The position numbers were made by a program, and so were the translations under genes. A stretch of 20,000 nucleotides of DNA from an uncultured virus (IMG/VR IMGVR_UViG_3300033148_003715). Its lineage: Duplodnaviria; Heunggongvirae; Uroviricota; Caudoviricetes. Below, in pieces: positions 5,023 to 19,440 of this stretch. The notes under the pieces were generated by a model. That model did no database searches and had not been told where the DNA came from. It saw only the letters and a list, made by a program, of their open reading frames with translations. The stretch's first letter is position 1; each line of letters opens with the position of its first letter. The stretch lies in IMG/VR virus record IMGVR_UViG_3300033148_003715; one strand, given 5' to 3'.

Positions 5023-8000
5023 ATGGCTCGTAAGAAGACCTTCTTCCCGATGCTTCACACTCATGACGAATACAGCATCAAGGACGGATGCAGCACGGTC
5101 GAGACCTACGCGAAGATCGTGAAGGGGCTCGGGGGTGACTCGCTTGCCGTGACCAATCACGGCCAGGCGGCGGGATTTGCCCGGCAGTGGTTCGCTTGCA
5201 AGGACCAGGGGATCAAGCCCATCTTCGGCCTCGAGGCCTACCTGTGCGAGGACCGCCACTCTACCGTCAGGGATGTCCTGGTCGAACTGAGGAAGAAGGA
5301 CAAGAAGGCGAAGGGCAAGGACCTCTCGATCCGCGCCAAGATCGCCAAGGCCGACGCTTTCCTCAAGGAGCGGTTCCGGCCGAGCCCTCATTCGGTCTTG
5401 CTGGCCCAAACCCGGGAGGGATACCGCAACCTGGTCCGAGTCTCGTCCGACTCCTGGCAGCGCGGCTTCTACTACGTGCCCAGGACCGACACGGCGTTTC
5501 TCGCCGAGCACGCCGAGGGGCTCGCCTACTCAACGGCCTGCATGGGCGGCTACATTCCTAAGCTCGCCAGGGACGACCCCGAGAAGGCCCTCAGGGAGGC
5601 CAGGAGGCTTCAAAAAGCATTCGAGGGGAGATTCTATGTCGAGCTGCTCATGACCGAGTACGGGCCCCAGAGGGAGTCCAACCAGGCTATGCTTGAGCTG
5701 GCCCACGAGATCGGGGCTCGGACGATCCTGACCTGCGACGTCCACTACGCGCGCCCGCGGGACTCGAAGGCGCAGGACACGCTCCTGCTAATGCGGGACA
5801 AGAAGACCATCAAGGACCGCGAGACCGGCGGCGAGGTCTGGCAATTCGAGACCAAGGACCTCTACTGGAAGACGCTCGAGCGCGTCGTCGAGTGCTGGCG
5901 AGACCATCACGGCGACTACCTGGATCGGAAGACGTTCAAGCGGTCGGTCAGGAACACCTACGCGCTCGCGGAGTCGATCGAGCACATAGAGTTCGACACG
6001 AGCCTGAAGCTCCCGGGGGTGTTTGAGAATCCCCAGGCCACGTTGAGGGAGCTGGTCGTGGTAGGGCTACGCCTCCGGGTGGCTCGTGGCGAGGTCCCGG
6101 CCAGTGGGAAGACGAGGCGCGACTACGTGGACCGGATCAAGCGCGAGCTGACCGTGGTCAACGTGAAGGGGTTCGCGGAGTACTTCCTTGTCCTGCACGA
6201 CGTGTGCGACCACGCCCGGAAGATTGGCTCGCGCATGGGCCCCGGCCGGGGGAGCGCGGGCGGTTCGCTCCTTGCGTTCCTCCTGCGAATCACCGAGATC
6301 GACCCACTGCGATTCTCGCTCCTGTTCGAGCGGTTCCTGGACGAGAACAGGCCAGACCCGCCCGACATCGACCTCGACTTCTCTCCCGAGCACCGCGACG
6401 CGATCAAGCAGTACGTGCAGGACCAGTACCCGGCCACGGCAACGATCGGATCGTTCGGCACCTTCAAGCCCAGGACGACGATTCAGAACGTGGCCCGCGT
6501 CTACGGGCTCGACCACCGCGAGGTCCTGAAGATCACCAAGCCCCTCGGGACCGACGCGGATAAGAAGACGTGGGATGAGGTGTTTGATCTCTGGCCTGAG
6601 GTCGAGGAGTTCGCCGACGACAACCCCGAGGCGTGGGAGGTGATCAAGACCCTCCGGGGGTTGATCTCCCACCGGGGTAAGAACGCCGCCGGGGTCCTGA
6701 TCGCGCCGGCTTCGGCTCTGGACGAGATCCCCATGATCGTCGAGCCCGACACGGGCCAGGTCGTGACTGCGTTTCCAGACAGCCAGGGCGATGGGGTCAC
6801 CTATCACGGGCGTGAGCTGACCAGGTTGGGCTACTTGAAGCTCGACATCCTCGGGGTCCGCAACCTCAATATCGCTCCTTTGGCGGCCGAGATCCTCGAG
6901 CGCGAGACCGGCGAGATGGTCGATCTGTCGGTGTCGTCTATGCCGCTCGACGACGCTCCGACTCTCGCGACGGCCTCGACGGCTGTCGTGCCTGGCGTAT
7001 TCCAGCTCGACTCGGCGACGACGCGCCCGATCCTCAAGCACGTCGGCGTTGACTCGTTCATTGACCTCGTCATGGTGACCGCGCTCTGTCGACCCGGCCC
7101 GCTCAAGCACGAGATCCATCGCGAGTTTTCACGACTCAAGCGGGCCGGCGGCGAGTGGAAGCGCGGCCTCCACCCGAAGCTCGTCCCGCTTCTCCGGGAG
7201 AGCCGCGGACTCATGATTCTCCAAGAGGATGTTATGGCCGTCGTCCAGGTCCTCGGGGGTCTCACGTTCGGCGAGGCCAACATGGTGCGTAAGGTGATCG
7301 GGAAGAAGCTCGACCCGGCTGCATTCAAGCCCTGGTGGGAGAAGTTCCTCGAGGGCGGTCTCGCTTTGGATCATTCCAAGGAGGAGCTAGAAGGAACGTG
7401 GTCGAAGATTGTCACCTTCGCCCGCTATGGATTCCCGAAAGCTCACGGGGTCGCCTACATGCTGACTAGCTATCAGCAGCTCTACATGCTCACCCACCAT
7501 CCACTGTTCTACTTTGCCGCGCTCCTCGCCCAGACCCCGCGCTCGAAGAAGACCAACTGGGGCGAGGAGAAGCTCGTCGGATTCATGCGGTCCGCCATGG
7601 GAGGCAGCCTGTCCGTGTTGGGTCCAGACGCGAGAGCCGGTTCGATCGAGTTCGACGTCGAGGACGGGGCGATCAGGTTCGGCCTCTCGAAGATCAAGGG
7701 AGTCGCGAGCGCGGCCGAGGCCGTCCTGGCCGCGCGACCCTTCTCGACCCTCTCGGAGTTCCACGACAAGATCGAGAAGAAGAAGGCGAACGCGCGAGTC
7801 GTGAAGGCCTTGATCTACTCCGGTGCGCTAGACGGACTCCGGCTCGGACGCGGTCTCGAGCGGGCCGAGCACGAGGCGCGCGAGCAGGGCGTTTTCCCGG
7901 AGGAGATCGAGTGGAGGAACGTGCTCATCGCGGGCTATCACGCCCTGCGGAAGACCAAGGGCGATCCTGACGTGTTTCTCTCGGGCTCGCTCCTCGATCG

Positions 8001-8406
8001 CGAGAGGGAGCTGATTGGGTTTGCGTTCTCCTGGTGGGGGTCTAATCAGAAGGGAGAGCTGAGAGAACAGGAAGGGCTCGAGACGATTGCCTGGCACGAA
8101 GAGGAAGACGTGACTCGGACGGAGATCCTGGCCGAGGTGACGAGGGCAAAGATCCACAAGAGCAAGCGCGGCCCTATGGCGTTCCTGACCCTGGCTGACG
8201 AGACCGGGTTGATCGAGAATGTGACGATCTTCGCCGAGCAGTGGAAGCACTACCGGGACCGTCTCAAGCCCGGGAGGATCGTGGTGATCCGCCTCAGACG
8301 GCGCGAGAGCACCAACCCACGCTACGGCGAGTTCAGCTACTACCTGGACGACCGCGCCGACGAGCAGGTCGAGCCCGCACAGCGCGCCCTCAGGAGAGGT
8401 AGGTGA
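5023..8406 (+). CDS. dnaE: DNA polymerase III alpha subunit (DnaE-type, family C)
   Basis: PHP domain motifs LHTHDEYSIKDG, TNHG, IKPIFGLEAY, TCDVHY. Polymerase motifs GPGRGSAGGSL, LLFERFL..RPDPPDIDLDF, LKLDILG, GVFQL, RPGPL, YGFPKAHGVAY, IRFGLSKIKGV. C-terminal OB fold (MAFLTLADETG). AAGGAG RBS before ATG5023. Confidence 0.97.
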   Translation: MARKKTFFPMLHTHDEYSIKDGCSTVETYAKIVKGLGGDSLAVTNHGQAAGFARQWFACKDQGIKPIFGLEAYLCEDRHSTVRDVLVELRKKDKKAKGKDLSIRAKIAKADAFLKERFRPSPHSVLLAQTREGYRNLVRVSSDSWQRGFYYVPRTDTAFLAEHAEGLAYSTACMGGYIPKLARDDPEKALREARRLQKAFEGRFYVELLMTEYGPQRESNQAMLELAHEIGARTILTCDVHYARPRDSKAQDTLLLMRDKKTIKDRETGGEVWQFETKDLYWKTLERVVECWRDHHGDYLDRKTFKRSVRNTYALAESIEHIEFDTSLKLPGVFENPQATLRELVVVGLRLRVARGEVPASGKTRRDYVDRIKRELTVVNVKGFAEYFLVLHDVCDHARKIGSRMGPGRGSAGGSLLAFLLRITEIDPLRFSLLFERFLDENRPDPPDIDLDFSPEHRDAIKQYVQDQYPATATIGSFGTFKPRTTIQNVARVYGLDHREVLKITKPLGTDADKKTWDEVFDLWPEVEEFADDNPEAWEVIKTLRGLISHRGKNAAGVLIAPASALDEIPMIVEPDTGQVVTAFPDSQGDGVTYHGRELTRLGYLKLDILGVRNLNIAPLAAEILERETGEMVDLSVSSMPLDDAPTLATASTAVVPGVFQLDSATTRPILKHVGVDSFIDLVMVTALCRPGPLKHEIHREFSRLKRAGGEWKRGLHPKLVPLLRESRGLMILQEDVMAVVQVLGGLTFGEANMVRKVIGKKLDPAAFKPWWEKFLEGGLALDHSKEELEGTWSKIVTFARYGFPKAHGVAYMLTSYQQLYMLTHHPLFYFAALLAQTPRSKKTNWGEEKLVGFMRSAMGGSLSVLGPDARAGSIEFDVEDGAIRFGLSKIKGVASAAEAVLAARPFSTLSEFHDKIEKKKANARVVKALIYSGALDGLRLGRGLERAEHEAREQGVFPEEIEWRNVLIAGYHALRKTKGDPDVFLSGSLLDRERELIGFAFSWWGSNQKGELREQEGLETIAWHEEEDVTRTEILAEVTRAKIHKSKRGPMAFLTLADETGLIENVTIFAEQWKHYRDRLKPGRIVVIRLRRRESTNPRYGEFSYYLDDRADEQVEPAQRALRRGR

Positions 8407-9026
8407 GCGAGTGCCAGGTCTGCCGCGGCTCACGGCACGTCTGGGACAAGGAGGCCGGGTCGTGGGTGTCGTGCGAGTGCCTACAGACCGAGCGAGCCCT
8501 GGCCCGGTACCGGTCGGCCGGGGTGCCGACCTGGCTCGAGGGGATGACGTGGCGGAGTTTCCTCGATTCACATCAGGTCTCGGACCCGGCTACGCTTCTT
8601 CGAATCGCAGCCAAGCTCAGGCGGGGTGAGCTACCGTGCGAGGGTCTCCTCGTTCACGGGAGGCCATCGCGGTCCAGAACCACGGCCGCGGCTCTCGTGC
8701 TCAGGTCCGCGTGTGATGCCGGGCTCGGGGTCCACTCAGTCACGATTCCGGCCTTGATCGACATCGAGTTTGACCGTGACCGCTCGCATCCCGAGGCTCT
8801 CGAGGCTGACGTGTTGTCGATCAGGTGCGGGGGCGAACCCGCGCACAAGTGGAACGGCTACGTCCTCGAGAAGGTGTTCCGATCCAGGGCCACAGCGGGC
8901 CTGTTCACCATGGTCGTCGCGGATCGTGATCCGGGTAGGCTCGAGGCCCTTTATAGGTCTGGTACGGTCGCGGACACGCTCAGACAATTCGTCAAGACAC
9001 GGGTCGCCCCGGAGGGAGTCGAGTGA
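8403..9026 (+). CDS. DnaC/IstB-like helicase-loader homolog with N-terminal Zn finger and degenerate P-loop
   Basis: CQVCRG..CEC..RYRSAGVP N-terminus as in phage DnaC-like proteins. GLLVHG followed by RPSRSRT instead of xxGxGKT. C-terminal R...GLFTMV sensor-like region. Directly upstream of and coupled to dnaB. Confidence 0.65.
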   Translation: MSECQVCRGSRHVWDKEAGSWVSCECLQTERALARYRSAGVPTWLEGMTWRSFLDSHQVSDPATLLRIAAKLRRGELPCEGLLVHGRPSRSRTTAAALVLRSACDAGLGVHSVTIPALIDIEFDRDRSHPEALEADVLSIRCGGEPAHKWNGYVLEKVFRSRATAGLFTMVVADRDPGRLEALYRSGTVADTLRQFVKTRVAPEGVE

Positions 9027-10387
9027 GCGAGGCCGAGCACACCGTTATAGCCGGGATCCTCCAGTCGTCGTCGAGGCTGGCCGACGTTGGAGGGCTGCGC
9101 CCAGAGTTCTTCGGACTCAAGGAGACCAGGGCCCTGTTCGAGTACGCGACTGCCTACCACCGCAAGCGCGGGAGGAAGAACGCCCTCGACATTCCCCTGG
9201 CGCGGTCGAGGCTGGAGGCGTCCAAGTCCAAGATTGCCCTGGCCTTGCTGGAGTTGGTCGACGACTACTCGGACCAGGAGCCCGTCACGGAGGCGGAGTT
9301 CAAGGACGCCCTCGAGGTCCTGGCCTCCGAGAGGAGGCACCACGTCTTGCGCCGGCACGGGGCCGCGGCCCTGGAGGCGGTGATCGAGGGAGACCTGGAC
9401 GCGGCCACGAGGCGCATGAGGCGAGGCTTGGTCGAGGCGGGCGACGCGAGCCTTGACGACGACTCCCCCGTCGACGTCAGGTCCAAGAGGGAGATCGCCG
9501 AGGAGAAGCGTCTGCTCGAGCCCCCCGAGGAGGGGGAGGAGGAGCAGAGTTTCGACGTCGGCTTCCCGCGGATCACGAGGGCCGTCTCGCTGCGCCGCAG
9601 GGAGCTGACGATCCTCGGGGGATATAGCTCGGACGGGAAGAGCCAGTGGTCGAAGGCGCTCGTCTACAACGCCTCGCGCCTGAGCAGGGCCAACGTCCTC
9701 TTCGTCGCGCTGGAGATGAGCCGGAGGGAGATGCGCGTCCTGTTCGTGGCCCAGCACGCGGCGTCCCTCGACCGGCGCGGCGTCGACTACCGGGCGATCC
9801 TGGAGAGGAACGCGAGCGCGGACGACAGGAAGCTCTATCGGCGGGCCCTCGATGAGTTCGGCATCGAGGGCCACGAGGACCAGGAGGAGATCCGCTCCGA
9901 GGCCGGGGCGCTGATCGTGTGGTCGCCGAACAAGCGGATCAACATGGACGACTTCACCGACCGCATTCGGGCCATGCGGCGCGACGCCGGGATCGACATT
10001 GTCGTTGGCGACTTCCTAGAGCTGATCCAGCCGAGCCGCAACCTTGGGCAGTACAGGCTCAACCTGAAGGACATGGTCGAGGAGAGCAAGGCGCTCGCCC
10101 GCGAGGAGGGGGTGTGGATGATCCTCAACCACCAGATCAGTCGGAAGGGCAGAGACGACGCAGAGAAGAGGAAGCCCAGGCCCTACTATCTGATGCGCGA
10201 CCTGGGGGAGACGAGTGGGATCGAGCGCGCGGCCGACTCATTCCTCTGGGTCTACTACGACGAGGACCTCGAGGACGACCGCGAGGCCATCGTGGGTGTC
10301 GGCAAGGCTCGGAAGGGACGGAAGATCGTGCGAGGTTTTCCGGTGTTCGCCAACTACTCACGCGCCCTGATCGCGGAGATTGACTAG
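9023..10387 (+). CDS. dnaB: Replicative DnaB-family helicase
   Basis: LTILGGYSSDGKS (H1), LFVALEM (H1a), IVVGDFLEL (H2), LNHQISR (H3), DLGETSGIERAAD (H4), KARKG. N-terminal EAEHTVIAGIL..LRPEFF. Confidence 0.9.
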   Translation: MSEAEHTVIAGILQSSSRLADVGGLRPEFFGLKETRALFEYATAYHRKRGRKNALDIPLARSRLEASKSKIALALLELVDDYSDQEPVTEAEFKDALEVLASERRHHVLRRHGAAALEAVIEGDLDAATRRMRRGLVEAGDASLDDDSPVDVRSKREIAEEKRLLEPPEEGEEEQSFDVGFPRITRAVSLRRRELTILGGYSSDGKSQWSKALVYNASRLSRANVLFVALEMSRREMRVLFVAQHAASLDRRGVDYRAILERNASADDRKLYRRALDEFGIEGHEDQEEIRSEAGALIVWSPNKRINMDDFTDRIRAMRRDAGIDIVVGDFLELIQPSRNLGQYRLNLKDMVEESKALAREEGVWMILNHQISRKGRDDAEKRKPRPYYLMRDLGETSGIERAADSFLWVYYDEDLEDDREAIVGVGKARKGRKIVRGFPVFANYSRALIAEID

Positions 10388-10912: not shown

Positions 10913-11569
10913 ATGGGTGAGGTCGGGAGGAGGATCGCGCGAATCAAGCTGGTTCCGTTCGAGGACGCCCTCAGGACGGTCGCCCCCGCCTGGCTCGAGA
11001 TCCCCGACTCGCTCCCGGCGATGATCGAGTGTCCGCTCCCCGACCACGATGACGTGACTCCCTCGTGTTGGGTCCAGCCGCACCGCTGGCACTGCTTCGG
11101 GTGTGGTTGCGGTGGCGATGTTTTGGATCTGGTCCAGGGGTTGATCGGGGTGGAAGTCGTCGCGGCCCTCCGGGTGGTCGAGCACGCACTCGGGTTCCGT
11201 CAGGGCGAGGACGAGGAGCTGTTCGAGCTGCTCGCCAGGTCTCGGGCCCGGCCGAGTCCGACCATCGATCGCCGTTCCTGGGAGGCCGAGTTGGAGCAGA
11301 TCGAGCGAGACTACTTTGATCGGGTCCGCCCCTATCTGAGGTGTCGTGATCCGATCGTCTCGGGTCGGGCCTGGTCGGTTTCCGATTACGTCTTCGCCCG
11401 GCTCGCTCTCGCGGCCTGGCCGGTCCCGAAGACCGCGCGCCGAGCCCGTGAGGTGACGCGCCGGCTCCGGTCGTGGTCGCAGGCCTACGCGGCCGGGCTC
11501 GAGGCGGACGTCGAGAGGATCACGGGCAAGGATCGCCTGGATGTCTCGCTCCAGCATTGGCTGCAATAG
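10913..11569 (+). CDS. CHC2 (DnaG-type) zinc-finger protein without TOPRIM domain
   Basis: CPLPDHDDVTPS..WHCFGCGCGGDVLDLV..G.....AL is the DnaG Zn-binding domain. The remainder is a short helical region with no EGxxD or DxD TOPRIM motifs. Confidence 0.85.
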   Translation: MGEVGRRIARIKLVPFEDALRTVAPAWLEIPDSLPAMIECPLPDHDDVTPSCWVQPHRWHCFGCGCGGDVLDLVQGLIGVEVVAALRVVEHALGFRQGEDEELFELLARSRARPSPTIDRRSWEAELEQIERDYFDRVRPYLRCRDPIVSGRAWSVSDYVFARLALAAWPVPKTARRAREVTRRLRSWSQAYAAGLEADVERITGKDRLDVSLQHWLQ

Positions 11570-11606
11570 GGTTACAACCTTCTCGGGATCTTTCTGGTTT
11601 CACCCC

Positions 11607-11641
11607 TTGTGGGGTGGGTATGACCCGGCTATAACGTGGGT
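11607..11641 (+). promoter_or_regulatory. Putative sigma70-type promoter (TTGTGG-N17-TATAAC), possibly giving a leaderless transcript
   Basis: TTGTGG 11607-11612, 17-bp spacer, TATAAC 11630-11635. ATG11642 follows 6 nt later with no SD. Overlaps the inverted repeat CACCCC-TTGT-GGGGTG (11601-11616). Confidence 0.45.
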
Positions 11642-12064
11642 ATGAGCAGCACAACCAAGACCCGCCGCCGACCCAAGAACATGGCCGAGAAGAACCTGAC
11701 CTGCTCGCGCTGCAAGGGCACCGGCTACGTCGACTCCCCCGTCCTCTACGCGGGCCGCCCCGGTGGCTGCTTCAAGTGCGCCACCCGCGGAACGGTCCCG
11801 AACCGGGCCAAGCAGTACCGGCTCGACCTCGAGGAGGCCCGCTCCAACCTGGTCGAGGCTCAGAAGGATGTCCCCGAGGCTCGCAGGCTGATCGAGGAGG
11901 CGGTCGTGGCGAAGCGGGCCCGCTATGAGGCCAAGGGGACGGAGTTCACCGCCAAGCGCGAGGCCAGCTACCGCGGGCGGCTCCAGAGCGACGTCGACCG
12001 TGCCTTGAAGGCCCTCTCTTACCGCGAGGCCGAGCTGGCCGCCTTTGTCGACGAGGGGATTTAG
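11642..12064 (+). CDS. Small Zn-finger (CxxCxGxG, DnaJ-like repeat) coiled-coil protein
   Basis: CSRCKGTG..GGCFKCATRG followed by a helical, charged C-terminus. Strong GC3 bias. Start could alternatively be ATG11681. Confidence 0.75.
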   Translation: MSSTTKTRRRPKNMAEKNLTCSRCKGTGYVDSPVLYAGRPGGCFKCATRGTVPNRAKQYRLDLEEARSNLVEAQKDVPEARRLIEEAVVAKRARYEAKGTEFTAKREASYRGRLQSDVDRALKALSYREAELAAFVDEGI

Positions 12065-12105
12065 TTGTAAGGGCGACGAATAAGAACAACACGAAGGAGA
12101 CAACC

Positions 12106-12558
12106 ATGAAGAAGCAGACCAAGCTCGATCGCGCCCAGATCCTCATCCTCGCCAATTCCGAGGAGGGAGGGTCGGTCAGTGTCTCGAGCCGGTATGGTGG
12201 GCCGAGCTGGGCCGAGGGTACCGGCATCGGGCTCGGGACCATTCAGCGGGCCGCGAAGATCCTCGAGGATCGGGACCTGCTCCGCACCCCCGGCTACAAC
12301 AACCGGTCGAGCCACTACCACCGGACGACCGAGGCCGAGCGGCGCGAGGCTCGCGAGGTCACCCACCGCCGCCACGCCGCCGACGCCGAGTCGAAGGACG
12401 TCCGGGCCACCCTCGAGGGCCACGGGGTTGAGACCAAGAAGGACTACGGGACCGACATCATCATGACCGCCGCCAACGCCCGCAAGCTCCTCGCCCTGAT
12501 CGGGTCCAGCGCGGACGCCGAGACCCTCGCAGCGGTCCGGGCCCTGCTCACCAAGTAA
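12106..12558 (+). CDS. Hypothetical protein (possible winged-helix-like N-terminus)
   Basis: AAGGAG RBS, ATG start, strong codon bias. GTGIGLGTIQRAAKILEDRDLL resembles a wHTH recognition helix. Confidence 0.8.
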   Translation: MKKQTKLDRAQILILANSEEGGSVSVSSRYGGPSWAEGTGIGLGTIQRAAKILEDRDLLRTPGYNNRSSHYHRTTEAERREAREVTHRRHAADAESKDVRATLEGHGVETKKDYGTDIIMTAANARKLLALIGSSADAETLAAVRALLTK

Positions 12559-12580
12559 CCAAGCCCAGAAGGCGACCGAC

Positions 12581-12604
12581 AAGGAGGCGACTATGACCAA
12601 GTAG
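12581..12604 (+). other. Minigene: AAGGAGG RBS + ATG ACC AAG TAG (Met-Thr-Lys-stop)
   Basis: Full SD at 12581-12587, 5-nt spacer, ATG12593, stop at 12602-12604. Confidence 0.5.
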
Positions 12605-12610
12605 TCGGCA

Positions 12611-12671
12611 GCGTGTCTAAGGCGGATTGGCCCTCGGGGGTCGGTGACGGGTTCGACTCCCGTGGCGCGCG
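12611..12671 (+). ncRNA. tRNA-like small RNA (acceptor stem + canonical T-arm; no D-stem; 4-nt loop in place of the anticodon loop)
   Basis: Acceptor GCGTGTC (12611-17) / GGCGCGC (12664-70). D-loop-like TAAGGCGGATT. Stem GGCCC-TCGG-GGGTC. Linker GGTG. T-arm ACGGG-TTCGACT-CCCGT. Discriminator-position G, then TCA. Confidence 0.65.
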
Positions 12672-12703
12672 TCAACCCTGATTAGTAGACCAAGGAGAAG
12701 GCT

Positions 12704-13105
12704 ATGAAGACCACCACGACCCAGAAGATCATGAACGCGATCCGGGACCTGCATGACTCGACCCCGAAGATCGTCGCCGCGACCGGCCTGGCGGCCTCGA
12801 CGGTCCGGCGCAATCTGTCCGTCCTGCGCGAGTCCGGCCAGATCGTCGCGGCCGGTCAGGCCCGGCCCCGGGGCTACACCTACTCGCTCCCGACCCCGGA
12901 GCCCATGCCGGAGTTCGTCACCACCGCCACCCCGGAGGAGACGATCATCGCCACCCTCGAGGCCCCGACCCCGTTCGGCCTCATCGCGGCCCGGACCCGG
13001 ATCAAGCGGGTTCGGCTCCAGGCCGTCCTGGTCCTGCTCGTCCAGGACGGGAAGCTGATCCGGGAGCGGATCAGCGGCGGCTGGGTCTACCAGCGGACCG
13101 CGTGA
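12704..13105 (+). CDS. Tandem winged-HTH DNA-binding protein
   Basis: AAGGAG RBS. Two wHTH-like units (STPKIVAATGLAASTVRRNLSVLRESGQI and TPFGLIAARTRIKRVRLQAVLVLLVQDGKL) joined by a Pro/Thr linker. Confidence 0.8.
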   Translation: MKTTTTQKIMNAIRDLHDSTPKIVAATGLAASTVRRNLSVLRESGQIVAAGQARPRGYTYSLPTPEPMPEFVTTATPEETIIATLEAPTPFGLIAARTRIKRVRLQAVLVLLVQDGKLIRERISGGWVYQRTA

Positions 13106-13219
13106 CCCCTCAGGGGCCGCTCACAGGTCTCGATCTCCCCCTGGGGGGATCCGGGCCTGTCGGGCGAGATCGTGCGCGAGGCGAGCCCGGAGAGCGTCAC
13201 AGGGCACGCCCGGGAGAAG

Positions 13220-13237
13220 GTTTGGGATATCCCAAAC
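13220..13237. promoter_or_regulatory. 18-bp palindrome copy 4 (perfect)
   Basis: GTTTGGGATATCCCAAAC in the intergenic region about 40 nt upstream of ATG13277. A second perfect palindrome, GACCCCCCGGGGGGTC (13243-13258), is adjacent. Confidence 0.8.
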
Positions 13238-13276
13238 TCCTTGACCCCCCGGGGGGTCTACTTGGGAGAGGAGACC

Positions 13277-13444
13277 ATGGTCGATCAGGAGAGATGGAAG
13301 AGGGTTAGGAGGGCCGCCAAGGTTAGGCGAGACACGCTCCTCAGGGAGTTGTTCGAGGCCGAGGAGCGCGGCAACTCGACTCGAGTCGAGATTCTGCGGA
13401 TAGGGATCTCAACCGCCGACCGAGAGGCGAGGGGGGAGGCGTGA
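13277..13444 (+). CDS. Small hypothetical protein (55 aa)
   Basis: GAGGAG RBS before ATG13277. The stop overlaps the next GTG (GTGA). Confidence 0.6.
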   Translation: MVDQERWKRVRRAAKVRRDTLLRELFEAEERGNSTRVEILRIGISTADREARGEA

Positions 13445-14550
13445 TCGCCGAAGGGGAGTTTACCCTGCACGAGATCCGGGCCCAGCAGGTCAGGCTCGAC
13501 CAGATCACGTCCCGGCTCGGGACGTTTCGGGAGTCGCTCTCCTTCAAGAGGGCCACGGCCGCCGCGGGGGAGACGGAGGCCGAGGCCCGCACGCTCGGCG
13601 AGGCCCTCAAGGTCGAGGAGTTCCGCGAGGCCCTCGAGGCGTACTCGACGGCGCGGGATAGGGAGCGGCAGGCCCAGAAGGCGTTCAACCGATGTCGTCG
13701 CACCAGGAGGGGCGGCTACACCGAGACCGGCGAGACCAGGAGGAACGAGCTGGCTGGGGCTCAGTCGAGGCTCAACTCGGAGCGCCTGCGCGTCCTGGAC
13801 CTGGCCGACCGCCACGGGGTCCCGGTCAACCTCGCGGCCTACGGCTCGGGGTCGCTCCTAAGTGACCTCAAGTGGCGACTCAAGAATCTGATCGCCAGTT
13901 ACCGGGACGGGGATCTCCCGGCCCTGATCTCCGGCACCGAGAGGGAGGAGCGCGAGTTCCGCGAGGCCCTGGACGCCATGCGGGGATCCCAGATCACGCC
14001 CAAGCGGGTCCGCCTGTTCGGACTCTACCTGAGCCTGAAGGCGCAGAAGACCCTCGTCAAGCTCTCGGCCGGGTACCAGCCCAAGAAGAAGACGATCGAG
14101 AATCAGGCGGCGACCTATGACGTCCTCGTTGACCTTGGCATGATCGAGCGGACAAGCCGGGTCTCGGTCGAGGACTTCGGGAGGGACGTCGCGGAGTGGC
14201 TTGAGCTGAACGTGTTGGTCCCGGATGTCAAGACCGCGGAGGCCAGGTCGGTCCCGCTGCGCGACGTCAAGAAGGCATTCACGGAGGACGAGCGGGGAGA
14301 CATGGTGACTCGGGCCAGGACAGAGTTGGCCCGGATCGTCGCGGAGGGCGAGGACGACCTGAGCACGATCCAGCTCGGCGTCGACGGGGCCAGCTACGAG
14401 ATCCTCAGGACCCGAGGGGCGCTTAGGTGGTTCCTGCGAATGATCGGTGGTTTGGCGGAGAAGCAGCCAGGCGTGAGAGCCAGGATCCGCTCGAGGAAGC
14501 GCCCTCCCGCGTTCGTCCCAGGGAGGATCGTCAATGTCGGACAGGCGTGA
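13441..14550 (+). CDS. Hypothetical protein, coiled-coil-rich
   Basis: 369-aa ORF with GGAGG RBS, coupled GTG start and good codon bias. No recognised motif. Confidence 0.75.
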   Translation: MIAEGEFTLHEIRAQQVRLDQITSRLGTFRESLSFKRATAAAGETEAEARTLGEALKVEEFREALEAYSTARDRERQAQKAFNRCRRTRRGGYTETGETRRNELAGAQSRLNSERLRVLDLADRHGVPVNLAAYGSGSLLSDLKWRLKNLIASYRDGDLPALISGTEREEREFREALDAMRGSQITPKRVRLFGLYLSLKAQKTLVKLSAGYQPKKKTIENQAATYDVLVDLGMIERTSRVSVEDFGRDVAEWLELNVLVPDVKTAEARSVPLRDVKKAFTEDERGDMVTRARTELARIVAEGEDDLSTIQLGVDGASYEILRTRGALRWFLRMIGGLAEKQPGVRARIRSRKRPPAFVPGRIVNVGQA

Positions 14551-14586
14551 TATGACCCCTGGTCTGTGGGTGCAACCGTGAGAGAG

Positions 14587-17500
14587 ATGTCGGACCAGGA
14601 CGAGCTGATCGACGCCGCCCGCGAGGTTCTCCTGCACCCGCTCGTCTCCGGGAACGCGGTCGCGCGGAAGCTCCTTGAGTTGCTCGAGGACGATCCCGAC
14701 CAGGTCCTGTCTCTCGTGCTCGGCGAGACCTCGCCCCGAGGGAAGCCGACCGTGCAGGCCGTGTTGGAGCGGAAGAAGGCGCACCAGAGAAGCAAGAAGA
14801 GGAAGCCGAGGAGACGTGTCTGTAGGACGGAGCCGATCCCCCAGCTCAGGCTCTACACGTTGGCCGAGCGCCCTTCCCGGCCCCTCACGGTGGTCGATGT
14901 CCCGACCGAGGGAGGCCAGGTCTGTCCCGCTTCGGAGTTCCCCTACCACGACCTCGGGCACGAGGAGTTGAACCCGATCCAGACCGCGGTCCTGCCATGG
15001 GTCGATAGGGACGTGAATCTGGTCGTGGCGGCGGCGACCTCCGCGGGTAAGACGATTGCGGCTGAGATGATGATCGCGGACGGTCTCGCCCGGGGTGGTA
15101 AGGGGATCTTCCTCAGTCCGCTCCGCGCCGTCAGCCAGGAGAAGCACGACGACTGGACGGGTGATCATCCTTGGAGCGAGTTGGGGGTCTCGATCGTGAC
15201 CGGTGACTACTCCCTCACGGACAAGCGGAGACGGGAGCTGCGTAGGGCCGATGTGGTCGTCATGACATCGGAGATGTTGGATTCAAAAAGCAGGAGAATG
15301 AGCAATCAGAACGAGTTCCTGAACGAGGTGCTCGCGCTCGTCGTGGACGAGGCCCACCTGCTCACCATGAAGGGCCGAGGGGATGCGCTCGAGTGTGGGG
15401 TGATGCGATTCACGAGGAAGAACCCGAGCGCGAGAGTCATTCTTCTGAGCGCGACCATGCCCAACGTGGACGAGCTGGGGACGTGGCTGACGTGCTTGAA
15501 CGGGAAGCCCTCGGTGGTGATTCGTTCGGACTGGCGCCCGACCCGGCTCACCGTTCACTGGCCCACCTACCGGGTCAGCCACGGCCGGGGCAGTTACCAG
15601 CGGAACGAGGCGAGCAAGCGCAAGGTGACGCTCGACCTGGTCGATCGCTACCCGGACGACAAGTGGTTGATCTTCGTCCACGGGAAGAAGGCCGGCTGGA
15701 GCTTGCTCGAGGAGCTGCACGAGCTGCACGAAGAAGCCGAGTTCCACAACGCCGACTTGGCCCGTGACAAGAGGATCGAGCTGGAGCGACGATTCAGATC
15801 CGGCTCCCTCCGGGTGGTGGTCGCGACCAGCACGCTCGCCTACGGGTGCTACAGGCACGGGACCGCGGTGGCGCTGGCCGACGGGACCCTCAGAGCCATA
15901 GAGAAGGTCGGACCAGGAGACGATGTCCTGTCCCTTGTCGACGGTCGATTTATATCCAGCCGGGTTCGATTCGCAGCGGAGAAGCAGGTTGAATCTGCCC
16001 TGAGGATTCGCCTCCAAACGGGCGAGACGTGCGATGTCAGCCGCGATCACGTGTTCTACGGGGCCGTCAGGCGGGACTCTCCTGCCTGGGTAGAAGCTCA
16101 CGAACTGGTTGTCGGGGACTTCTTGGCGGTTCCCTCGAATCTCGAATCGCCTCGGTTCATGATCGGCGAACAGGTCGAGGACGAGTGGGCCTATGTTCTG
16201 GGGTTCGTCCACGGTGATGGGTCGATCTGTCGCGCAGGATCCCACGCGGACGGAAAGTCGAAGCTGCAACTTGACGTCTCCGCAGGACATGAAGACGCAG
16301 ATCATCTGCATTGTTTCTGGGGGATACTCGAGGACGTCACTGGCGAACGGTTCCCAGAACCGAGGAGACGCCGGGACGGGGTCTGGCACATGGTCACCAA
16401 GCGTCGGGCCGTCGTTGATGCTATCGCGGCTGAGTTCGGACCGTGGGACAAGGCGTCTCTAGGTATTCCTGATCGAGCCTCAGACAACACGCGGTCGCTT
16501 CGGTCGTATCTGCGCGGTCTGTTCGACACCGACGGCTGGGTTCAGAAGCACGGCGAGAAGAACTTCTCGGTCGGACTCAGCAGCATCAGCGAGACCCTCA
16601 TCAGACAGGTTCAACACCATCTTCTGAGGTTCGGCGTCCGAGGCAGCGTTACTCGCCACCGCATGAGGGATTCGGTGTTCGGCGAGAGGATCCAGCCGGC
16701 CCGCCGCGACTACTCATGGAGGGTCACGATCTACAACTTCCAGGCGATCAGGTTTCGCGAGCGCATTGGGTTCCGTCTGGAGCGGAAGCGCGACCGACTG
16801 GACGAGTTCGAGTTCGGGGGAACCGAGCCCAACGCGACGGCCGATCTGATCCCCGTTCGTGGCCTGATCGACGATCACCTCTTGGTTAATCAGACTTCTC
16901 CTTCTGATCTTGAGAGGGAAACAGGCCAGAGACGTTGGTGCGTGGTGAATAGGAAGGACATCACCCGTGCTTCTGCTCAGAAGATCATCAAGGCGTTCCC
17001 TGACTCGTCTGCTCTGAACGATCTAGTTGACCAGAACGTCCTCTGGAAGAAGGTGGTCGAGATCGAGGACGTTGAGGGAGGCAGGTTCCAAGACATCACC
17101 GTCGACGGACAGAACTTCGTCGGTGCCGGGATCGTCTCGCACAACTGTAATCTGCCCGCCCGCCGAACTCTCATTCTTGGGGTCCACCGGGGCATCTCCG
17201 AGGTGGACCCGATCGACGTCAAGCAGGAGTGTGGACGCGCCGGTAGGACGGGCATGGACTCAGAGGGGGACGCCTACGTGTTGATCCCCGAGAACCGGGC
17301 TAGACAGGTCAGGCAGCGGTTCAGCCTCGTCCCCAGGATCGAGTCCAGGATCAACGACGTCGACGTTCTCGCGTTCCACCTCACGGCGGAGGTCGCGGAG
17401 GGTGACGTGCGGACCCTGGCCGACGCGGTCGCGTGGCACTCGAGGAGCTTGGCCGCCCACCAGGGCAACGGCCTCGAGGAGGACGGCGCACTGGTCTCGG

Positions 17501-18193
17501 CCGAGAATGTGGTTGAGAAGCTGATCCAGGCGGGGATCCTGAAGCGTGACGAGGACGGGACCCTGTCCGCGACCTCGCTCGGCCGGGTCTCGTCATGGCT
17601 CTACTACAGCCCGTTCGACATCGCGGACTGGTGCAGTAACTTCCGCCGCCTCGTCGAACTGGACAAGACCCGTGACGACGACTGCCTCGCCTGGGCACTC
17701 GGGAAGATCCGCACCGCGTACAAGACCACCTACCTGCCGAAGGAGCACGAGCGAGACCTGAACGAGCTGGAGTGGCGGCTGAGAGCCAAGGGGATCGAAC
17801 AACTCGTTCCATGGCATGATCGCCGGGCTCGACTACAAGGGAATCCGGTCCCAACAGAGACAGCTCACCTACGACTCCGAGAGGATCGTCCAGGCCCTCA
17901 AGCTGATAGACCAGCACGTCCTCCAGTCACTCGGGTCGACCTATTTCGGTTTGCTCGGGCTCCGGCTCCGCTATGGGTGCGGGTGGAAGGAGGCCGACTT
18001 GTGCTCGATTCCGGGCGTGGGTGCCAAGCGAGCCAGGCTCCTTGCCCGGGAGGGAATCTCGTCGGTCGAGGACGTGGTCGATCATCGTGGATCTGTGATG
18101 GCCGCGGTTGGGAAACGCCTTGCGATCAACGTCGTCAGGGGCGCCAAGCAGGTCCTGAAGGAACGACGGCGTGGGGGGTTGCAACGCGGTTAG
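14587..18193 (+). CDS. Hel308/Ski2-like SF2 DEAH helicase, intein-containing, with apparent +1 frameshift near 17783-17816
   Basis: LNPIQ (Q motif), AATSAGKT, SPLRAVSQEK, VVDEAH, LSATMPN, WRPTRL, LIFVHGKK, VATSTLAYG/NLPA, QECGRAGR. The Hel308-like C-terminus (LRYG..L.SIPGVGAKRARLL..GI.S) lies in the +1 frame ORF 17816..18193. Start is ATG14587 or GTG14566. Confidence 0.85.
15847..17145 (+). mobile_element. Intein (433 aa) with LAGLIDADG homing endonuclease
   Basis: Starts CYRHGTAVALADG (block A). Block B VSRDHVF. LAGLIDADG-like WAYVLGFVHGDGS and YLRGLFDTDGWV. Ends FQDITVDGQNFVGAGIVSHN followed by +1 Cys. Removal restores STLAYG-CNLPA (helicase motif V). Confidence 0.95.
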
Positions 18194-18247
18194 GTTTGAG
18201 CTAAGATTGGGGAACGACGGGACAACCGTCGAGATTAGAGGAAAGAC

Positions 18248-18508
18248 ATGACGCAGTCGAAGAAGACCAAGAAGAGGATGAAGCGAACCGCCGAGGAGCC
18301 CGGTCAGGTTTGCGATATCCCAAACCCCACAGACGTCGTCAAGCACGTCTCAGACTCACCGTGCTCGATCGAGTTCAGCCGAGACGCGAAGGGTCAGCCC
18401 AGGTGGGCGATCAAGCTCTACGGCGAGCGCGACGACATGGACGACGTCCTCAACGACACCCTCAACCTCGATCGCAGGCTCCGTGAGGAGATGAAGAGTG
18501 GCACCTAA
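18248..18508 (+). CDS. Small hypothetical protein
   Basis: GAGGA RBS and ATG. Basic N-terminus, then SIEFSRDAKGQPRWAIKLY beta-hairpin and a helix. Contains palindrome copy 5. Confidence 0.65.
   Translation: MTQSKKTKKRMKRTAEEPGQVCDIPNPTDVVKHVSDSPCSIEFSRDAKGQPRWAIKLYGERDDMDDVLNDTLNLDRRLREEMKSGT
18308..18325. promoter_or_regulatory. 18-bp palindrome copy 5 (GTTTGCGATATCCCAAAC, 1 mismatch; intragenic)
   Basis: 17/18 match to the consensus. Flanked by an extra G/C pair (18307 and 18326). Confidence 0.75.
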
Positions 18509-18881
18509 GCGGAGGATCAGAAGACGAAAGAAGCCGGCCCCGACGGAGTCCGCCGGGTTGAGGCCTCGGCAGCCCGAGGATCTGACCATGACCGAGATGC
18601 TCGAGCGTGTCCCGAGGGACGAGTACCTGACCACGCCCGAGATCCAGCACGTGTTCGGTGGGGTCCACCGGGTCACGGTCAGCAAGTGGGTGGCTCAGGA
18701 GAAGCTCCCCACGTATCGGACTGGCGCCCGAGGGCGAGCGAACCTATTCCACCGAGATGACGTGATCGCGTTGATCAAGCGGCGATTCACTCCTCGGCCA
18801 TCCAACTCAGGGAGGACGAGTGTCAAGAAGGGGAAGCGTGCGGGAGGCCCCGTTCGGAAGACCAAGAAGGCTCGCTCGTAG
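18498..18881 (+). CDS. Excisionase-like / MerR-type HTH DNA-binding protein
   Basis: EYLTTPEIQHVFGGVHRVTVSKWVAQEKLPTYRTG..LFHRDDV fits the HTH_17-type pattern, with basic tails at both ends. GAGGAG RBS. Confidence 0.8.
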   Translation: MAPKRRIRRRKKPAPTESAGLRPRQPEDLTMTEMLERVPRDEYLTTPEIQHVFGGVHRVTVSKWVAQEKLPTYRTGARGRANLFHRDDVIALIKRRFTPRPSNSGRTSVKKGKRAGGPVRKTKKARS

Positions 18882-18900
18882 TGAGGTCAAGCCCGGGGAC

Positions 18901-19440
18901 GTGCTCGAGATCAGAGGGGCTTTCGAGGCCATCGCGAATCGGATTCACTCGCACTCTGCCCTACGTGATTGGGTGGAGCGAGAGGACCTGGTTCAGGAGG
19001 TCCTGTTGAAGGTCTTGCTGGAGCTGGAGTCGTTCCGGGGGGAGTCGTCCCTCAGGACGTGGGCGACATCGATCGCGCGGAATCACTTGCTGAAGTTGGC
19101 CCGCGCGGCAGCAAAGACTCACCGACCCAGGGCCGGAGGGGATCTGTCCTCGACTGCACGGGAAGAGGATCCAGTTCGGCGCATGGAGTTGCGTGGGACC
19201 ACGAAGGAACTGCTTGGGTGGCTGAGGTCGAACCCGAGCGAGGTCGATCGGGGGTGGGAGGTGTTGAACCTGCTTCTGTGGAGTCATGGGAACTACAACT
19301 ACGTGTCTATCGCGCTGATGATCCACACGGGCAAGCCGTGGTCGGTGCGGGATGTGAAGAAGACAGTCGAGAAGATCAAAGGAACCAGGAGGGGGCTGGC
19401 TCTGTGCCAAGCTCTCGGGATTGACCAAGGAGGTCTGTAG
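18901..19440 (+). CDS. ECF-like RNA polymerase sigma factor
   Basis: Sigma region 2 signature EREDLVQEVLLKV..LESFRGESSLRTWATSIARNHLL. Divergent region 4. Start uncertain (GTG18901, or GTG18820 of the ORF track). Confidence 0.8.
   Translation: MLEIRGAFEAIANRIHSHSALRDWVEREDLVQEVLLKVLLELESFRGESSLRTWATSIARNHLLKLARAAAKTHRPRAGGDLSSTAREEDPVRRMELRGTTKELLGWLRSNPSEVDRGWEVLNLLLWSHGNYNYVSIALMIHTGKPWSVRDVKKTVEKIKGTRRGLALCQALGIDQGGL

What the first reader, a model, noticed from the sequence alone, without database searches (positions are those of the whole stretch)
12611..12674. 61-nt tRNA mimic lacking D-stem and anticodon loop
Seen: a 7-bp acceptor stem (two U-G pairs) stacked directly on a canonical 5-bp T-stem with TTCGACT loop. 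The D-arm is reduced to an unpaired GG-containing loop (TAAGGCGGATT). The anticodon arm is a 5-bp stem closed by only 4 nt (TCGG). There is no encoded CCA. Established: this layout resembles the tRNA-like domain of tmRNA and other tRNA mimics (mascRNA, the tRNA-like module of bacterial Y RNAs), but it lacks tmRNA's G3:U70 and an mRNA-like domain. Inference: it cannot decode, so it may be a decoy (for anticodon nucleases, SmpB, EF-Tu or a synthetase) or an RNase P/Z processing signal that cuts the early transcript. All stems are intact, which argues against random decay.
Basis: partly seen in the sequence, partly recalled or inferred. Interest (0 to 1): 0.8.

Follow-up and report, generated by a model that had tools for sequence, protein, structure and literature searches.

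The report
Anticodon-less tRNA look-alike in phage
An uncultured high-GC phage carries, just ahead of a small regulator gene, a 61-base RNA fold that keeps only the "top half" of a tRNA and cannot read codons; a distant relative keeps it at the same spot, so it most likely marks where host tRNA-trimming enzymes cut the phage message.

Summary
Window 12611-12671 (+) has a 7-bp acceptor stem stacked on a canonical T-arm (loop TTCGACT). A 29-nt core replaces the D and anticodon arms. There is no CCA. ARAGORN and Rfam call nothing.

It lies in the 145-nt gap between two + strand genes of a phage replication module, 32 nt upstream of a winged-helix gene.

Alone it is weak: 34 of 1000 shuffled windows give such a motif. 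The one relative whose sequence reaches the site and keeps the downstream gene (L005, DnaB 53% identical) has the same design there. It has an identical T-loop, the same 29-nt core length and two compensatory pair changes, while the flanks and core are at random identity. Chance would give this in 3 of 300,000 shuffles. So it is neither chance nor a recent deletion pseudogene.

Best reading (about 0.45): a cis-acting tRNA-like processing signal for RNase P and RNase Z, like plant mitochondrial t-elements or mascRNA. A trans-acting decoy is not excluded. No RNA data exist.

Earlier unchecked notes of this scan describe similar elements in other phages. I found none in print for phages.

Verdict: new variant of a known kind, moderate interest.

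The parts
12611..12617 (+). Acceptor stem, 5' half (GCGTGTC)
   Evidence: Pairs 7/7 with 12664-12670, including two U:G pairs. The L005 counterpart is GCCCGCA, with one compensatory and two one-sided changes and one broken pair.
12618..12646 (+). 29-nt non-canonical core replacing the D and anticodon arms. It consists of a G-rich 8-nt linker (12618-12625), an 8-bp hairpin with a UCGG loop (12626-12645), and 1 nt.
   Evidence: Constrained fold. L005 has the same 29-nt length but unrelated sequence (7/29 identical) and a 6-nt linker, 6-bp hairpin with 9-nt loop, and 2 nt. cmscan aligned the hairpin to the variable arm of tRNA-Sec, which is not significant.
12647..12663 (+). T-arm: stem ACGGG/CCCGT, loop TTCGACT
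   Evidence: The T-loop is 7/7 identical in L005. Pair 49:65 changes A:U to C:G and pair 50:64 changes C:G to U:G.
12664..12670 (+). Acceptor stem, 3' half (GGCGCGC)
   Evidence: 6/7 identical to L005.
12671..12673 (+). Discriminator G followed by TC; no encoded CCA. Inferred RNase Z-type cleavage site.
   Evidence: GTC is identical in L005 (3/3). The cleavage itself is inference.
12106..12558 (+). Upstream gene (150 aa, no family). Its stop codon lies 52 nt before the element.
   Evidence: GC3 is 0.91. No homologue except itself and one weak 26-residue stretch. It is unrelated to the upstream gene of L005.
12692..13105 (+). Ribosome-binding site AAGGAG (12692-12697) and downstream winged-helix/HTH gene (ATG at 12704, 133 aa). 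This is the gene the element precedes in both phages.
   Evidence: GC3 is 0.96. Weak HTH_IclR, HTH_5 and MarR-like matches. 25% identity, pairwise E=0.001, to the L005 gene at 9107-9616.

Best explanation
The element is a conserved, non-decoding tRNA-like RNA module: an acceptor/T-arm 'top half' plus a compact 29-nt core. It is embedded in the rightward polycistronic transcript of the phage replication module, in the leader of a winged-helix regulator gene.

Proposed mechanism (inferred, not shown):
1. Once transcribed, it folds like the top half of a tRNA.
2. Host RNase P cuts at its 5' end, before G12611.
3. A 3' tRNA-end nuclease (RNase Z type) cuts after the discriminator G12671, before U.
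4. This separates the upstream message from the wHTH message, gives the latter a defined 5' UTR of about 32 nt carrying its ribosome-binding site, and releases a roughly 61-nt tRNA-like RNA that may receive CCA.

In function it would be a phage counterpart of plant mitochondrial t-elements and of mascRNA.

Shown: the structure, its position, and its conservation with compensatory changes.
Inferred: transcription, cleavage, and the effect on wHTH expression.
For: 1. Structure. A 7-bp acceptor stem is stacked on a canonical T-arm with GGTTCGACTCC. This is the motif Forner et al. used to find t-elements (PMC1920247, passages read).
2. Position. It lies on the coding strand, in a non-coding gap (no GC3 periodicity) between co-directional genes. 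No terminator-like site was called between the upstream stop and the element.
3. Conservation. L005 (DnaB 53%, primase-like 48% identical) has the same design immediately upstream of its weakly homologous wHTH gene, although its upstream gene is unrelated.
   - Both copies have a 29-nt core, an identical T-loop and an identical G-T-C after the stem.
   - 23 of 24 stem cells are paired, with 2 compensatory and 3 one-sided changes. Slid controls pair 33-67%.
   - Flanks and core are at random identity: 13/50, 7/29 and 8/30 against 0.28 expected.
   - Chance recurrence is 3 in 300,000 shuffles.
4. Distance. From the element's 3' end to the next start codon is 32 nt (window) and 38 nt (L005), and 34 nt in an unrelated look-alike in L057/L063.
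5. Co-occurrence. L011, the relative that lacks the wHTH gene, also lacks the element in the region held.
6. Nearest Rfam architecture for the look-alikes is mascRNA-menRNA, an RNase P/Z-processed tRNA-like RNA: L005 14.1 bits, L057 25.3 bits with E=0.0038, both below the cut-off of 42.5.
7. t-elements are cleaved, CCA-tailed and base-modified but not aminoacylated (PMC11658184, passages read). This shows that tRNA-end enzymes alone can give such elements a function.
Against: - There are no RNA data of any kind. Transcription, ends and cleavage are untested.
- Only two homologous copies exist, so covariation has no statistical weight. The shuffle control reached the observed values in 119 of 500 runs.
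- Pair 7:66 is broken in L005 (A.G).
- In the window copy a non-tRNA fold is 4.5 kcal/mol more stable than the tRNA-like fold.
- Thermodynamic z-scores are modest: -2.0 for the window and -0.8 for L005.
- Only one such element was found in each record fragment (47 kb and 83 kb). It is therefore not a general punctuation system.
- A processing role does not explain why the core length is held at 29 nt.
Confidence: 0.45

Rival explanations
1. It is a trans-acting small RNA. The released, CCA-tailed tRNA top-half mimic is itself the functional product. It would act as a decoy or sponge for a host factor that reads the acceptor/T-arm/elbow and not the anticodon. Candidates are an acceptor-end-modifying defence toxin, a synthetase, EF-Tu, the CCA-adding enzyme or a tRNA-modifying enzyme. 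Any processing would be only its maturation.
For: - Exactly the parts read by acceptor-end enzymes are conserved: T-loop 7/7, 3' acceptor half 6/7, discriminator G.
- The constant 29-nt core length and the G-rich linker in both copies could preserve a tRNA-like elbow (inference).
- ARAGORN-negative tRNA-like minihelices with perfect 7-bp Watson-Crick acceptor stems recur in unrelated viral contigs. They occur in 5 of 43 loci (4 distinct sequences), where about 0.2 is expected by my own estimate.
- Some of these sit in tRNA clusters. One (L064) is followed by a terminator-like hairpin with a T-run, seen by eye, like a stand-alone RNA gene.
Against: - No own promoter or terminator was found in the window.
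- It has a fixed place 32-38 nt ahead of one particular gene and is absent together with that gene in L011.
- No CCA-adding enzyme gene is present in the two record fragments (0 of 2; both under 50% complete).
- No target is known.
- Plant t-elements, the nearest analogue, are not aminoacylated (PMC11658184).
Confidence: 0.2
2. It is a cis-acting leader structure without cleavage. The tRNA-like fold would act as a 5' stabiliser or a translational control element for the wHTH mRNA. For example, it could bind the wHTH protein itself or a tRNA-binding factor to autoregulate.
For: It is linked to the wHTH gene and not to the upstream gene. The distance to the start codon is constant. In the window an alternative fold competes with the T-arm, which could act as a switch.
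Against: The alternative fold is not shared by L005. Nothing in the wHTH protein marks it as RNA-binding; it gives only weak HTH matches. A canonical T-loop is not needed for a mere stabilising hairpin.
Confidence: 0.12
3. It is a non-functional relic of a phage tRNA gene, possibly class II, that lost its D and anticodon region by deletion in the common ancestor and has simply not yet decayed.
For: The related record G002 encodes real tRNAs about 13 kb away, so this lineage carries tRNA genes. Truncated tRNA-like pieces lie inside tRNA arrays of other phages. The D-loop-like GGCGGATTGG and the variable-arm-like hairpin of the window copy recall class II tRNAs (a resemblance recalled from memory; the tRNA-Sec alignment is not significant).
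Against: Neutral decay should have erased it. The flanks and the core are at random identity, yet the stems keep pairing through two compensatory and three one-sided changes, and the T-loop is 7/7. The core length is the same in both copies.
Confidence: 0.12
4. It is an attP-type recombination site or a copy of the 3' end of a host tRNA gene.
For: Integrating actinobacterial elements commonly carry the 3' part of a tRNA gene (recalled knowledge).
Against: - The 5' acceptor half is present and covaries, which an att core does not need.
- No tyrosine integrase was found in either record fragment (0 of 2; both under 50% complete; serine recombinases were not searched).
- The site lies inside a replication operon.
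- The 25-nt T-arm plus 3' acceptor string, with up to 3 mismatches allowed, hit 3 of 401 sampled Actinomycetes-class genomes. All three hits had exactly 3 mismatches and carried changes inside the T-arm. The reversed control pattern hit once.
Confidence: 0.03

Closest known systems
t-elements of plant mitochondria (Hanic-Joyce et al. 1990, cited in PMC11658184; Forner et al. 2007, PMC1920247; PMC11658184)
   Same: They are tRNA-like elements with a conserved GGTTCRANYCC T-arm and an acceptor-like stem but a non-canonical cloverleaf. They sit in the leaders or trailers of protein-coding genes and have no decoding role. In plants they are cut by RNase P and RNase Z to set mRNA ends, then CCA-tailed and base-modified but not aminoacylated (passages read).
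   Different: The genetic systems are unrelated, so this is an analogue, not a homologue. Plant t-elements are recognisably derived from particular tRNA genes and are mostly tRNA-sized (about 74 nt). This element is 61 nt with a 29-nt core and no traceable parent tRNA. Cleavage is shown in plants and only inferred here.
mascRNA / menRNA (Rfam RF01684)
   Same: These are tRNA-like RNAs of about 58-61 nt with an acceptor stem, a T-arm and a reduced core. They are excised from a longer transcript by RNase P and RNase Z (abstract starts of PMC8457004 and PMC11693755 in the listing; Rfam description). This is the best-scoring Rfam architecture for the look-alikes: L005 14.1 bits, L057 25.3 bits.
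   Different: It is a vertebrate nuclear lncRNA family. All scores here are below the 42.5-bit cut-off, and the window copy gives no match at E<=10. There is no homology.
tRNA-like domain of tmRNA
   Same: An acceptor stem stacked on a T-arm, no D-stem and no anticodon.
   Different: There is no G3:U70, no mRNA-like domain or tag reading frame, and no long P2 helix. ARAGORN tmRNA search is negative even at the 80% threshold.
Small 'stable RNAs' in the tRNA clusters of phages T4 (species 1 and 2, rnaC/rnaD) and T5 (recalled from memory; also named in the scan's earlier unchecked notes)
   Same: Phage-encoded, non-decoding RNAs with tRNA-like ends, presumably matured by tRNA-processing enzymes. 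Their function is unknown.
   Different: Those are larger (about 100-140 nt, recalled) and lie within tRNA gene arrays as separate genes. This element is 61 nt, solitary, and sits in the leader of a protein gene.
Canonical tRNA or tRNA pseudogene (Rfam RF00005)
   Same: Acceptor stem, T-arm, discriminator, and no encoded CCA, as I recall for many actinobacterial tRNA genes.
   Different: Only 29 nt lie between the acceptor and the T-stem, where a class I tRNA has about 41-42 (41-42 in the ARAGORN-called class I tRNAs of L010 and L023). There is no D-stem of canonical form and no 7-nt anticodon loop. RF00005 finds nothing at E<=1 at either copy.

Membership tests
Canonical tRNA (RF00005) | Cloverleaf with a D-arm, and an anticodon arm with a 5-bp stem and a 7-nt loop | tested here: not met
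   ARAGORN gives 0 genes and none at relaxed thresholds. Rfam gathering gives 0. RF00005 at E<=1 has no match in G001 and none at the L005 copy. The core is 29 nt with a 4-nt hairpin loop.
Canonical tRNA (RF00005) | 7-bp acceptor stem stacked on a 5-bp T-stem with a TTCRANN loop | tested here: met
   The feature is conserved in L005.
tmRNA (tRNA-like domain) | G3:U70 alanine identity pair | tested here: not met
   Pair 3:70 is G:C in the window and C:G in L005.
tmRNA (tRNA-like domain) | mRNA-like domain with a tag reading frame between the two halves of the tRNA-like domain | tested here: not met
   Only 29 nt lie between the halves. ARAGORN tmRNA search is negative.
mascRNA-menRNA (RF01684) | Score at or above the Rfam gathering cut-off (42.5 bits) | tested here: not met
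   The window has no match at E<=10. L005 scores 14.1 bits and L057 scores 25.3 bits.
YrlA / bacterial Y RNA | Match to the Rfam model (tRNA-like module plus Ro-binding helix) | tested here: not met
   No such match at E<=10 in window 12400-12900 or at gathering score in the window or G001.
t-element-type processing signal (functional class) | Conserved T-arm motif GGTTCRANYCC with an acceptor-like stem and a non-canonical core | tested here: met
   GGTTCGACTCC at 12650-12660 and a 7-bp acceptor stem. The motif definition is from PMC1920247.
t-element-type processing signal (functional class) | Located in the leader or trailer of a protein gene, on the transcribed strand | tested here: met
   It is on the + strand, 52 nt after one stop codon and 32 nt before the next start codon. 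The position is the same in L005.
t-element-type processing signal (functional class) | Transcript ends coincide with the element's ends; cleavage by RNase P and RNase Z | not testable with these tools
   This needs RNA end mapping or in vitro cleavage.
attP / copy of a host tRNA 3' end | Near-identity of the T-arm and 3' acceptor half to a host tRNA gene | tested here: inconclusive
   3 of 401 sampled Actinomycetes-class genomes matched, all at 3 mismatches and with changes inside the T-arm. The reversed control matched once. The true host is unknown.
attP / copy of a host tRNA 3' end | Integrase gene in the element | tested here: inconclusive
   PF00589 was found in 0 of 2 record fragments. 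Both are under 50% complete, and serine recombinases were not searched.

The most novel reading that the evidence does not exclude
Phages of several unrelated lineages encode solitary, anticodon-less 'top-half' tRNA mimics. These are matured by host RNase P and RNase Z, CCA-tailed, and act in trans as decoys for host factors or defence toxins that attack or read the tRNA acceptor end or elbow. Candidates include nucleotidyltransferase or acetyltransferase toxins acting on the acceptor end (a candidate class named from memory). The element would then be a new class of RNA-based counter-defence, and its place in an mRNA leader would merely be its way of being expressed early.
Probability: 0.12. 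Interest if true: 0.85.

Novelty: new variant of a known kind. Interest (0 to 1): 0.55.

Why it matters
If host tRNA-end enzymes cut phage messages at such elements, phages use the same 'tRNA punctuation' trick as mitochondria to split polycistronic transcripts and set the level of a regulator. Standard annotation would miss this layer of phage gene control, because tRNA finders and Rfam do not see these elements.

If the released RNA instead acts in trans, it would be a compact RNA decoy aimed at the acceptor end of tRNA, a target of several bacterial toxins.

Either way the 61-nt module is a small, testable substrate for RNase P, RNase Z and the CCA-adding enzyme.

The case is limited by having only two homologous copies and no RNA data.

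Tried and rejected
- **Close DNA or protein relatives in GenBank phages.** blastn of 12000-13400 and of 12540-12710 gave no match. tblastn of both flanking proteins gave no match. PolIII alpha hit 1215 records, all below 60% identity, the best about 30% in Streptomyces phages.
- **Flanking proteins in the large protein collections.** The wHTH protein found only itself. The upstream protein found itself plus one 26-residue stretch.
- **IMG/VR scans.** The upstream protein and DnaB as single queries found nothing. The exact 24-nt T-arm/acceptor string found nothing.
- **The window's own assembly** is not held. I used the near-identical record G001 instead.
- **Sequencing runs.** None was listed and no RNA holder was listed.
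- **Relatives L006 and L007** end 200-300 nt after the primase-like gene and cannot show the site.
- **Covariance model R1,** built from the two copies and run over 245,617 bases in 54 held sources. Only the two training copies scored above 70 bits. The next best was 27.8 bits, among loci that had been picked for the same T-arm.
- **Second copies.** A relaxed motif scan found none in G001 or G002.
- **Relaxed ARAGORN** (80% and 60% thresholds, and mitochondrial mode) gave only overlapping low-grade calls on both strands. One was a 'tRNA-Ala(tgc)' spanning the L005 copy. I treat all of these as noise.
- **Class II tRNA origin.** The idea rests on the tRNA-Sec alignment, 15.3 bits, which is not significant.
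- **CCA-adding enzyme** (PF01743) and **tyrosine integrase** (PF00589): none in the G001 or G002 fragments.
- **Literature.** Four full-text searches found no paper describing t-element-like processing signals or anticodon-less tRNA minihelices in phage mRNA leaders. PMC10690425 (passages read) mentions phage tRNA-like candidates only in general terms, and its supplements were not read.
- **Chance** was rejected.
- **The minus-strand ORF 12061-12675** was rejected as a shadow frame (GC3 of 0.64 against 0.91 for the + strand gene).

Full report
**1. What is there**

Window 12611-12671 (+) reads as follows.
- 5' acceptor half: GCGTGTC.
- A 29-nt core.
- T-stem ACGGG, T-loop TTCGACT, T-stem CCCGT.
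- 3' acceptor half: GGCGCGC.
- Discriminator G, then TCA.

All seven acceptor pairs form, two of them U:G, and all five T-stem pairs form. Pair 3:70 is G:C, and no CCA is encoded.

With the acceptor and T stems imposed, the core folds into three pieces.
- An 8-nt G-rich linker, TAAGGCGG.
- An 8-bp hairpin with a UCGG loop at 12626-12645.
- One further nucleotide.

There is no 7-nt loop, so there is no anticodon.

The detectors do not see it.
- ARAGORN finds no tRNA or tmRNA in the window or in the near-identical 47-kb record G001. Relaxed thresholds give nothing in the window.
- Rfam has no match at gathering score.
- The only overlapping weak match is tRNA-Sec, 15.3 bits against a cut-off of 47, E=3.5. 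It deletes the D and anticodon arms and aligns the hairpin to the variable arm.

**2. Context**

The window is part of a phage-like, 64% G+C contig. All its genes lie on the + strand.

| Feature | Coordinates |
|---|---|
| Tail-fibre-like gene | 13-762 |
| SNF2 helicase | 2637-4352 |
| PolIII alpha | 4993-8406 |
| DnaB | 9023-10387 |
| Primase-like zinc-finger protein | 10913-11569 |
| Small gene | 11636-12064 |
| Small gene | 12106-12558 |
| Gap holding the element | 12559-12703 |
| Winged-helix/HTH gene | 12704-13105 |
| Intein-bearing DEAD helicase | 14566-18204 |
| Sigma factor | 18820-19440 |

- GC3 is 0.91 for the gene before the gap and 0.96 for the gene after it. The gap has no such periodicity, and the minus-strand ORF across it is a shadow frame.
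- No terminator-like site lies between the upstream stop and the element. No + strand promoter-like site was called in 11500-13500.
- The element ends 32 nt before the ATG of the wHTH gene, whose AAGGAG ribosome-binding site is at 12692-12697.
- The proteins of this phage occur on a contig of 131,306 bases, so the genome is large.
- The nearest isolated phages are Streptomyces phages at about 30% PolIII identity. One relative sits in a MAG labelled uncultured Actinomycetes. An actinobacterial host is therefore likely but only inferred.

**3. Is it more than chance?**

Alone, barely. A scan for TTCRANN, a 5-bp stem and a 7/7 acceptor at any spacing of 10-69 hits only this site in the window. 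It also hits at least once in 34 of 1000 dinucleotide shuffles. Folding energy is modestly better than shuffles (z = -2.0, 5 of 200). The unconstrained MFE in fact replaces the T-arm with a 10-bp helix, at -32.0 against -27.5 kcal/mol for the tRNA-like fold.

**4. The comparative evidence decides it**

The two flanking proteins have no relatives. DnaB has a family at 45-60% identity. Its alignment retrieved four distinct related loci.
- L005 (the same contig as L008), an 83-kb IMG/VR contig.
- L006 and L007, both short.
- L011, a 99.6-kb contig of a MAG.

L006 and L007 end 200-300 nt after the primase-like gene and are uninformative.

L005 is informative. After its primase-like gene (48% identical) comes an unrelated 438-aa gene, then a 159-nt gap. 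The next gene is weakly homologous to the wHTH gene (25% identity, pairwise E=0.001). The gap holds the following.
- Acceptor GCCCGCA/GGCGGGC.
- T-stem CTGGG/CCCGG.
- T-loop TTCGACT.
- Discriminator G followed by TC.
- Again exactly 29 nt between the acceptor half and the T-stem.
- 38 nt from the element to the ATG.

An ungapped comparison of the two copies gives these identities.

| Segment | Identical positions |
|---|---|
| T-loop | 7/7 |
| 3' acceptor half | 6/7 |
| G-T-C after the stem | 3/3 |
| Core | 7/29 |
| Upstream 50 nt | 13/50 |
| Downstream 30 nt | 8/30 |
| Random expectation | 0.28 |

The stems hold through change.
- 23 of 24 cells form standard pairs.
- Pair 3:70 changes G:C to C:G and pair 49:65 changes A:U to C:G; both are compensatory.
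- Three pairs change on one side only (U:G to C:G twice, C:G to U:G once).
- Pair 7:66 is broken (A.G) in L005.
- Sliding the partners by 1-3 columns gives 33-67% paired.
- With two sequences the shuffle control is uninformative (119 of 500).

A motif of this kind with a 27-31-nt spacing arises in 3 of 300,000 shuffles of the L005 gap.

In L005 the MFE is itself the tRNA-like fold. Its core is a 6-nt G-rich linker, a 6-bp hairpin with a 9-nt loop, and 2 nt. That is the same layout as the window copy with different sequence.

L011 (DnaB 45% identical) has neither the wHTH gene nor the element between its primase and helicase genes.

Each record has only one such element. G002, the record of L005, has two real tRNA genes about 13 kb away.

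Three conclusions follow.
- The element is old and under selection for the acceptor/T-arm minihelix and for core length.
- It is tied to the downstream gene.

**5. What it is not**

- **Not a tRNA or a tmRNA.** See the membership table.
- **Not supported as an att site.** The 5' half covaries. No tyrosine integrase is present in the two record fragments. The T-arm plus 3' acceptor string has no near match among 401 sampled Actinomycetes-class genomes beyond noise: 3 hits at 3 mismatches, with 1 hit for the reversed control.

**6. Look-alikes elsewhere**

An IMG/VR scan for the T-arm followed by nine free bases and GTC gave 43 loci.
- 5 of the 43 loci (L035, L040, L057, L059, L061; four distinct sequences) have all-Watson-Crick 7-bp acceptor stems at non-canonical spacings of 57, 30, 13 and 36 nt. 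ARAGORN calls none of them a tRNA. About 0.2 would be expected by chance, by my own estimate.
- Two further matches (L023, L042) are ordinary ARAGORN-called tRNAs.
- L040 and L057 come from a complete 37.5-kb phage with terminal repeats. Their element has a 30-nt core, ends 34 nt before the first gene of a leftward operon, and gives the best sub-threshold Rfam match to mascRNA (25.3 bits, E=0.0038).
- The other look-alikes lie inside tRNA arrays, or before a terminator-like hairpin with a T-run seen by eye.
- A second scan added L075, which has a 39-nt spacing and the same 3' acceptor half as the window.

These are analogues in unrelated contexts, not homologues. They show that ARAGORN-invisible tRNA top-half mimics recur in phages.

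Earlier unchecked notes of this scan report the same kind of thing on other phage DNA. One carries the same t-element reading (e1-6067212). I had reached that comparison independently.

**7. How it most likely works**

What is conserved is the acceptor stem, the T-arm, the discriminator and the base after it. From established knowledge, these are the parts read by RNase P, RNase Z and the CCA-adding enzyme, none of which needs an anticodon arm.

Plant mitochondrial t-elements share the T-arm motif and the non-canonical core.
- They sit at mRNA leaders and trailers and are cut by RNase P and Z to set mRNA ends (PMC1920247, passages read).
- The excised pieces are CCA-tailed and modified but not aminoacylated (PMC11658184, passages read).

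mascRNA is a tRNA-like RNA of 58 nt excised in the same way (abstract starts).

I therefore favour a cis-acting processing signal. It would separate the wHTH message from the upstream message and give it a short, defined leader. I put this at 0.45.

The U after the discriminator fits what I recall of RNase Z preference on CCA-less precursors. That is recalled, not tested.

Rivals:

| Reading | Confidence |
|---|---|
| Trans-acting decoy or other small-RNA role | 0.20 |
| Uncleaved leader structure controlling stability or translation | 0.12 |
| Relic tRNA | 0.12 |
| att site | 0.03 |

The remainder covers chance and explanations I have not thought of. Processing and a trans role are not exclusive.

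**8. Novelty and limits**

The kind is known in organelles and vertebrate lncRNAs: a non-decoding tRNA-like element used by tRNA-end enzymes. Phages are known to carry odd tRNA-like stable RNAs (recalled).

A solitary 61-nt top-half mimic conserved in the leader of a phage regulator gene was not found in print in four searches. Supplements of PMC10690425, which lists thousands of phage RNA candidates, were not read and might contain related motifs.

The evidence rests on two homologous copies and no RNA data.

Noticed in passing
window 14566-18204 (+): A DEAD/Helicase_C helicase is interrupted by an intein with a LAGLIDADG homing endonuclease (Intein_splicing, LAGLIDADG_3 and Hint matches). 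The L011 homologue matches residues 33-428 and 852-1068 contiguously, so it lacks the roughly 420-aa insert.
   Followed up: partly
L005 4363-6771 (+): The DnaB homologue of the related phage is matched in two pieces, residues 1-207 at 4363-4980 and residues 195-451 at 6001-6771, with about 1 kb between them. This is probably another intein or insertion. The database protein P0022 is 688 aa.
   Followed up: no
L013 1501-1658 (G002 58168-58322): The related phage carries tRNA-Ile(TAT) followed 2 nt later by an 84-nt tRNA that ARAGORN reports as 'tRNA-???' with a four-base anticodon (aaat). RF00005 scores it at 41 bits.
   Followed up: no
window 12581-12604 (+): A strong Shine-Dalgarno sequence AAGGAGG is followed 5 nt later by a three-codon ORF (ATG ACC AAG TAG). 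The ORF ends 6 nt before the element. It has no counterpart in L005, which instead has an 11-bp GC-rich hairpin there, seen by eye.
   Followed up: partly
L040/L057 (= L063 ~5094-5157, minus strand); L059/L065; L061; L035/L066; L055/L058/L064; L022/L032/L052; L075 352-422: Unrelated viral contigs carry tRNA-like acceptor/T-arm minihelices that ARAGORN does not call. The cores are 9, 13, 30, 36, 39 or 57 nt long. Some lie inside tRNA arrays, one lies 34 nt before a first operon gene, and one lies about 35 nt before a terminator-like hairpin with a T-run, seen by eye.
   Followed up: partly
L026, L049-L051, L053, L054, L062 (match at ~401-425): A recurring 72-nt tRNA-shaped sequence has a normal D-arm but a 6/7 acceptor stem and an odd anticodon region. 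ARAGORN does not call it. It lies within tRNA arrays (Ser, Thr, Pro) in several viral contigs of about 47-52% GC.
   Followed up: no
window 18498-19440 (+): An HTH_17 (excisionase/MerR-like) gene is followed, with overlap, by a sigma-70 region 2 protein. The phage may therefore redirect transcription with its own sigma factor. Its promoters would not be seen by the sigma-70 consensus scan.
   Followed up: no
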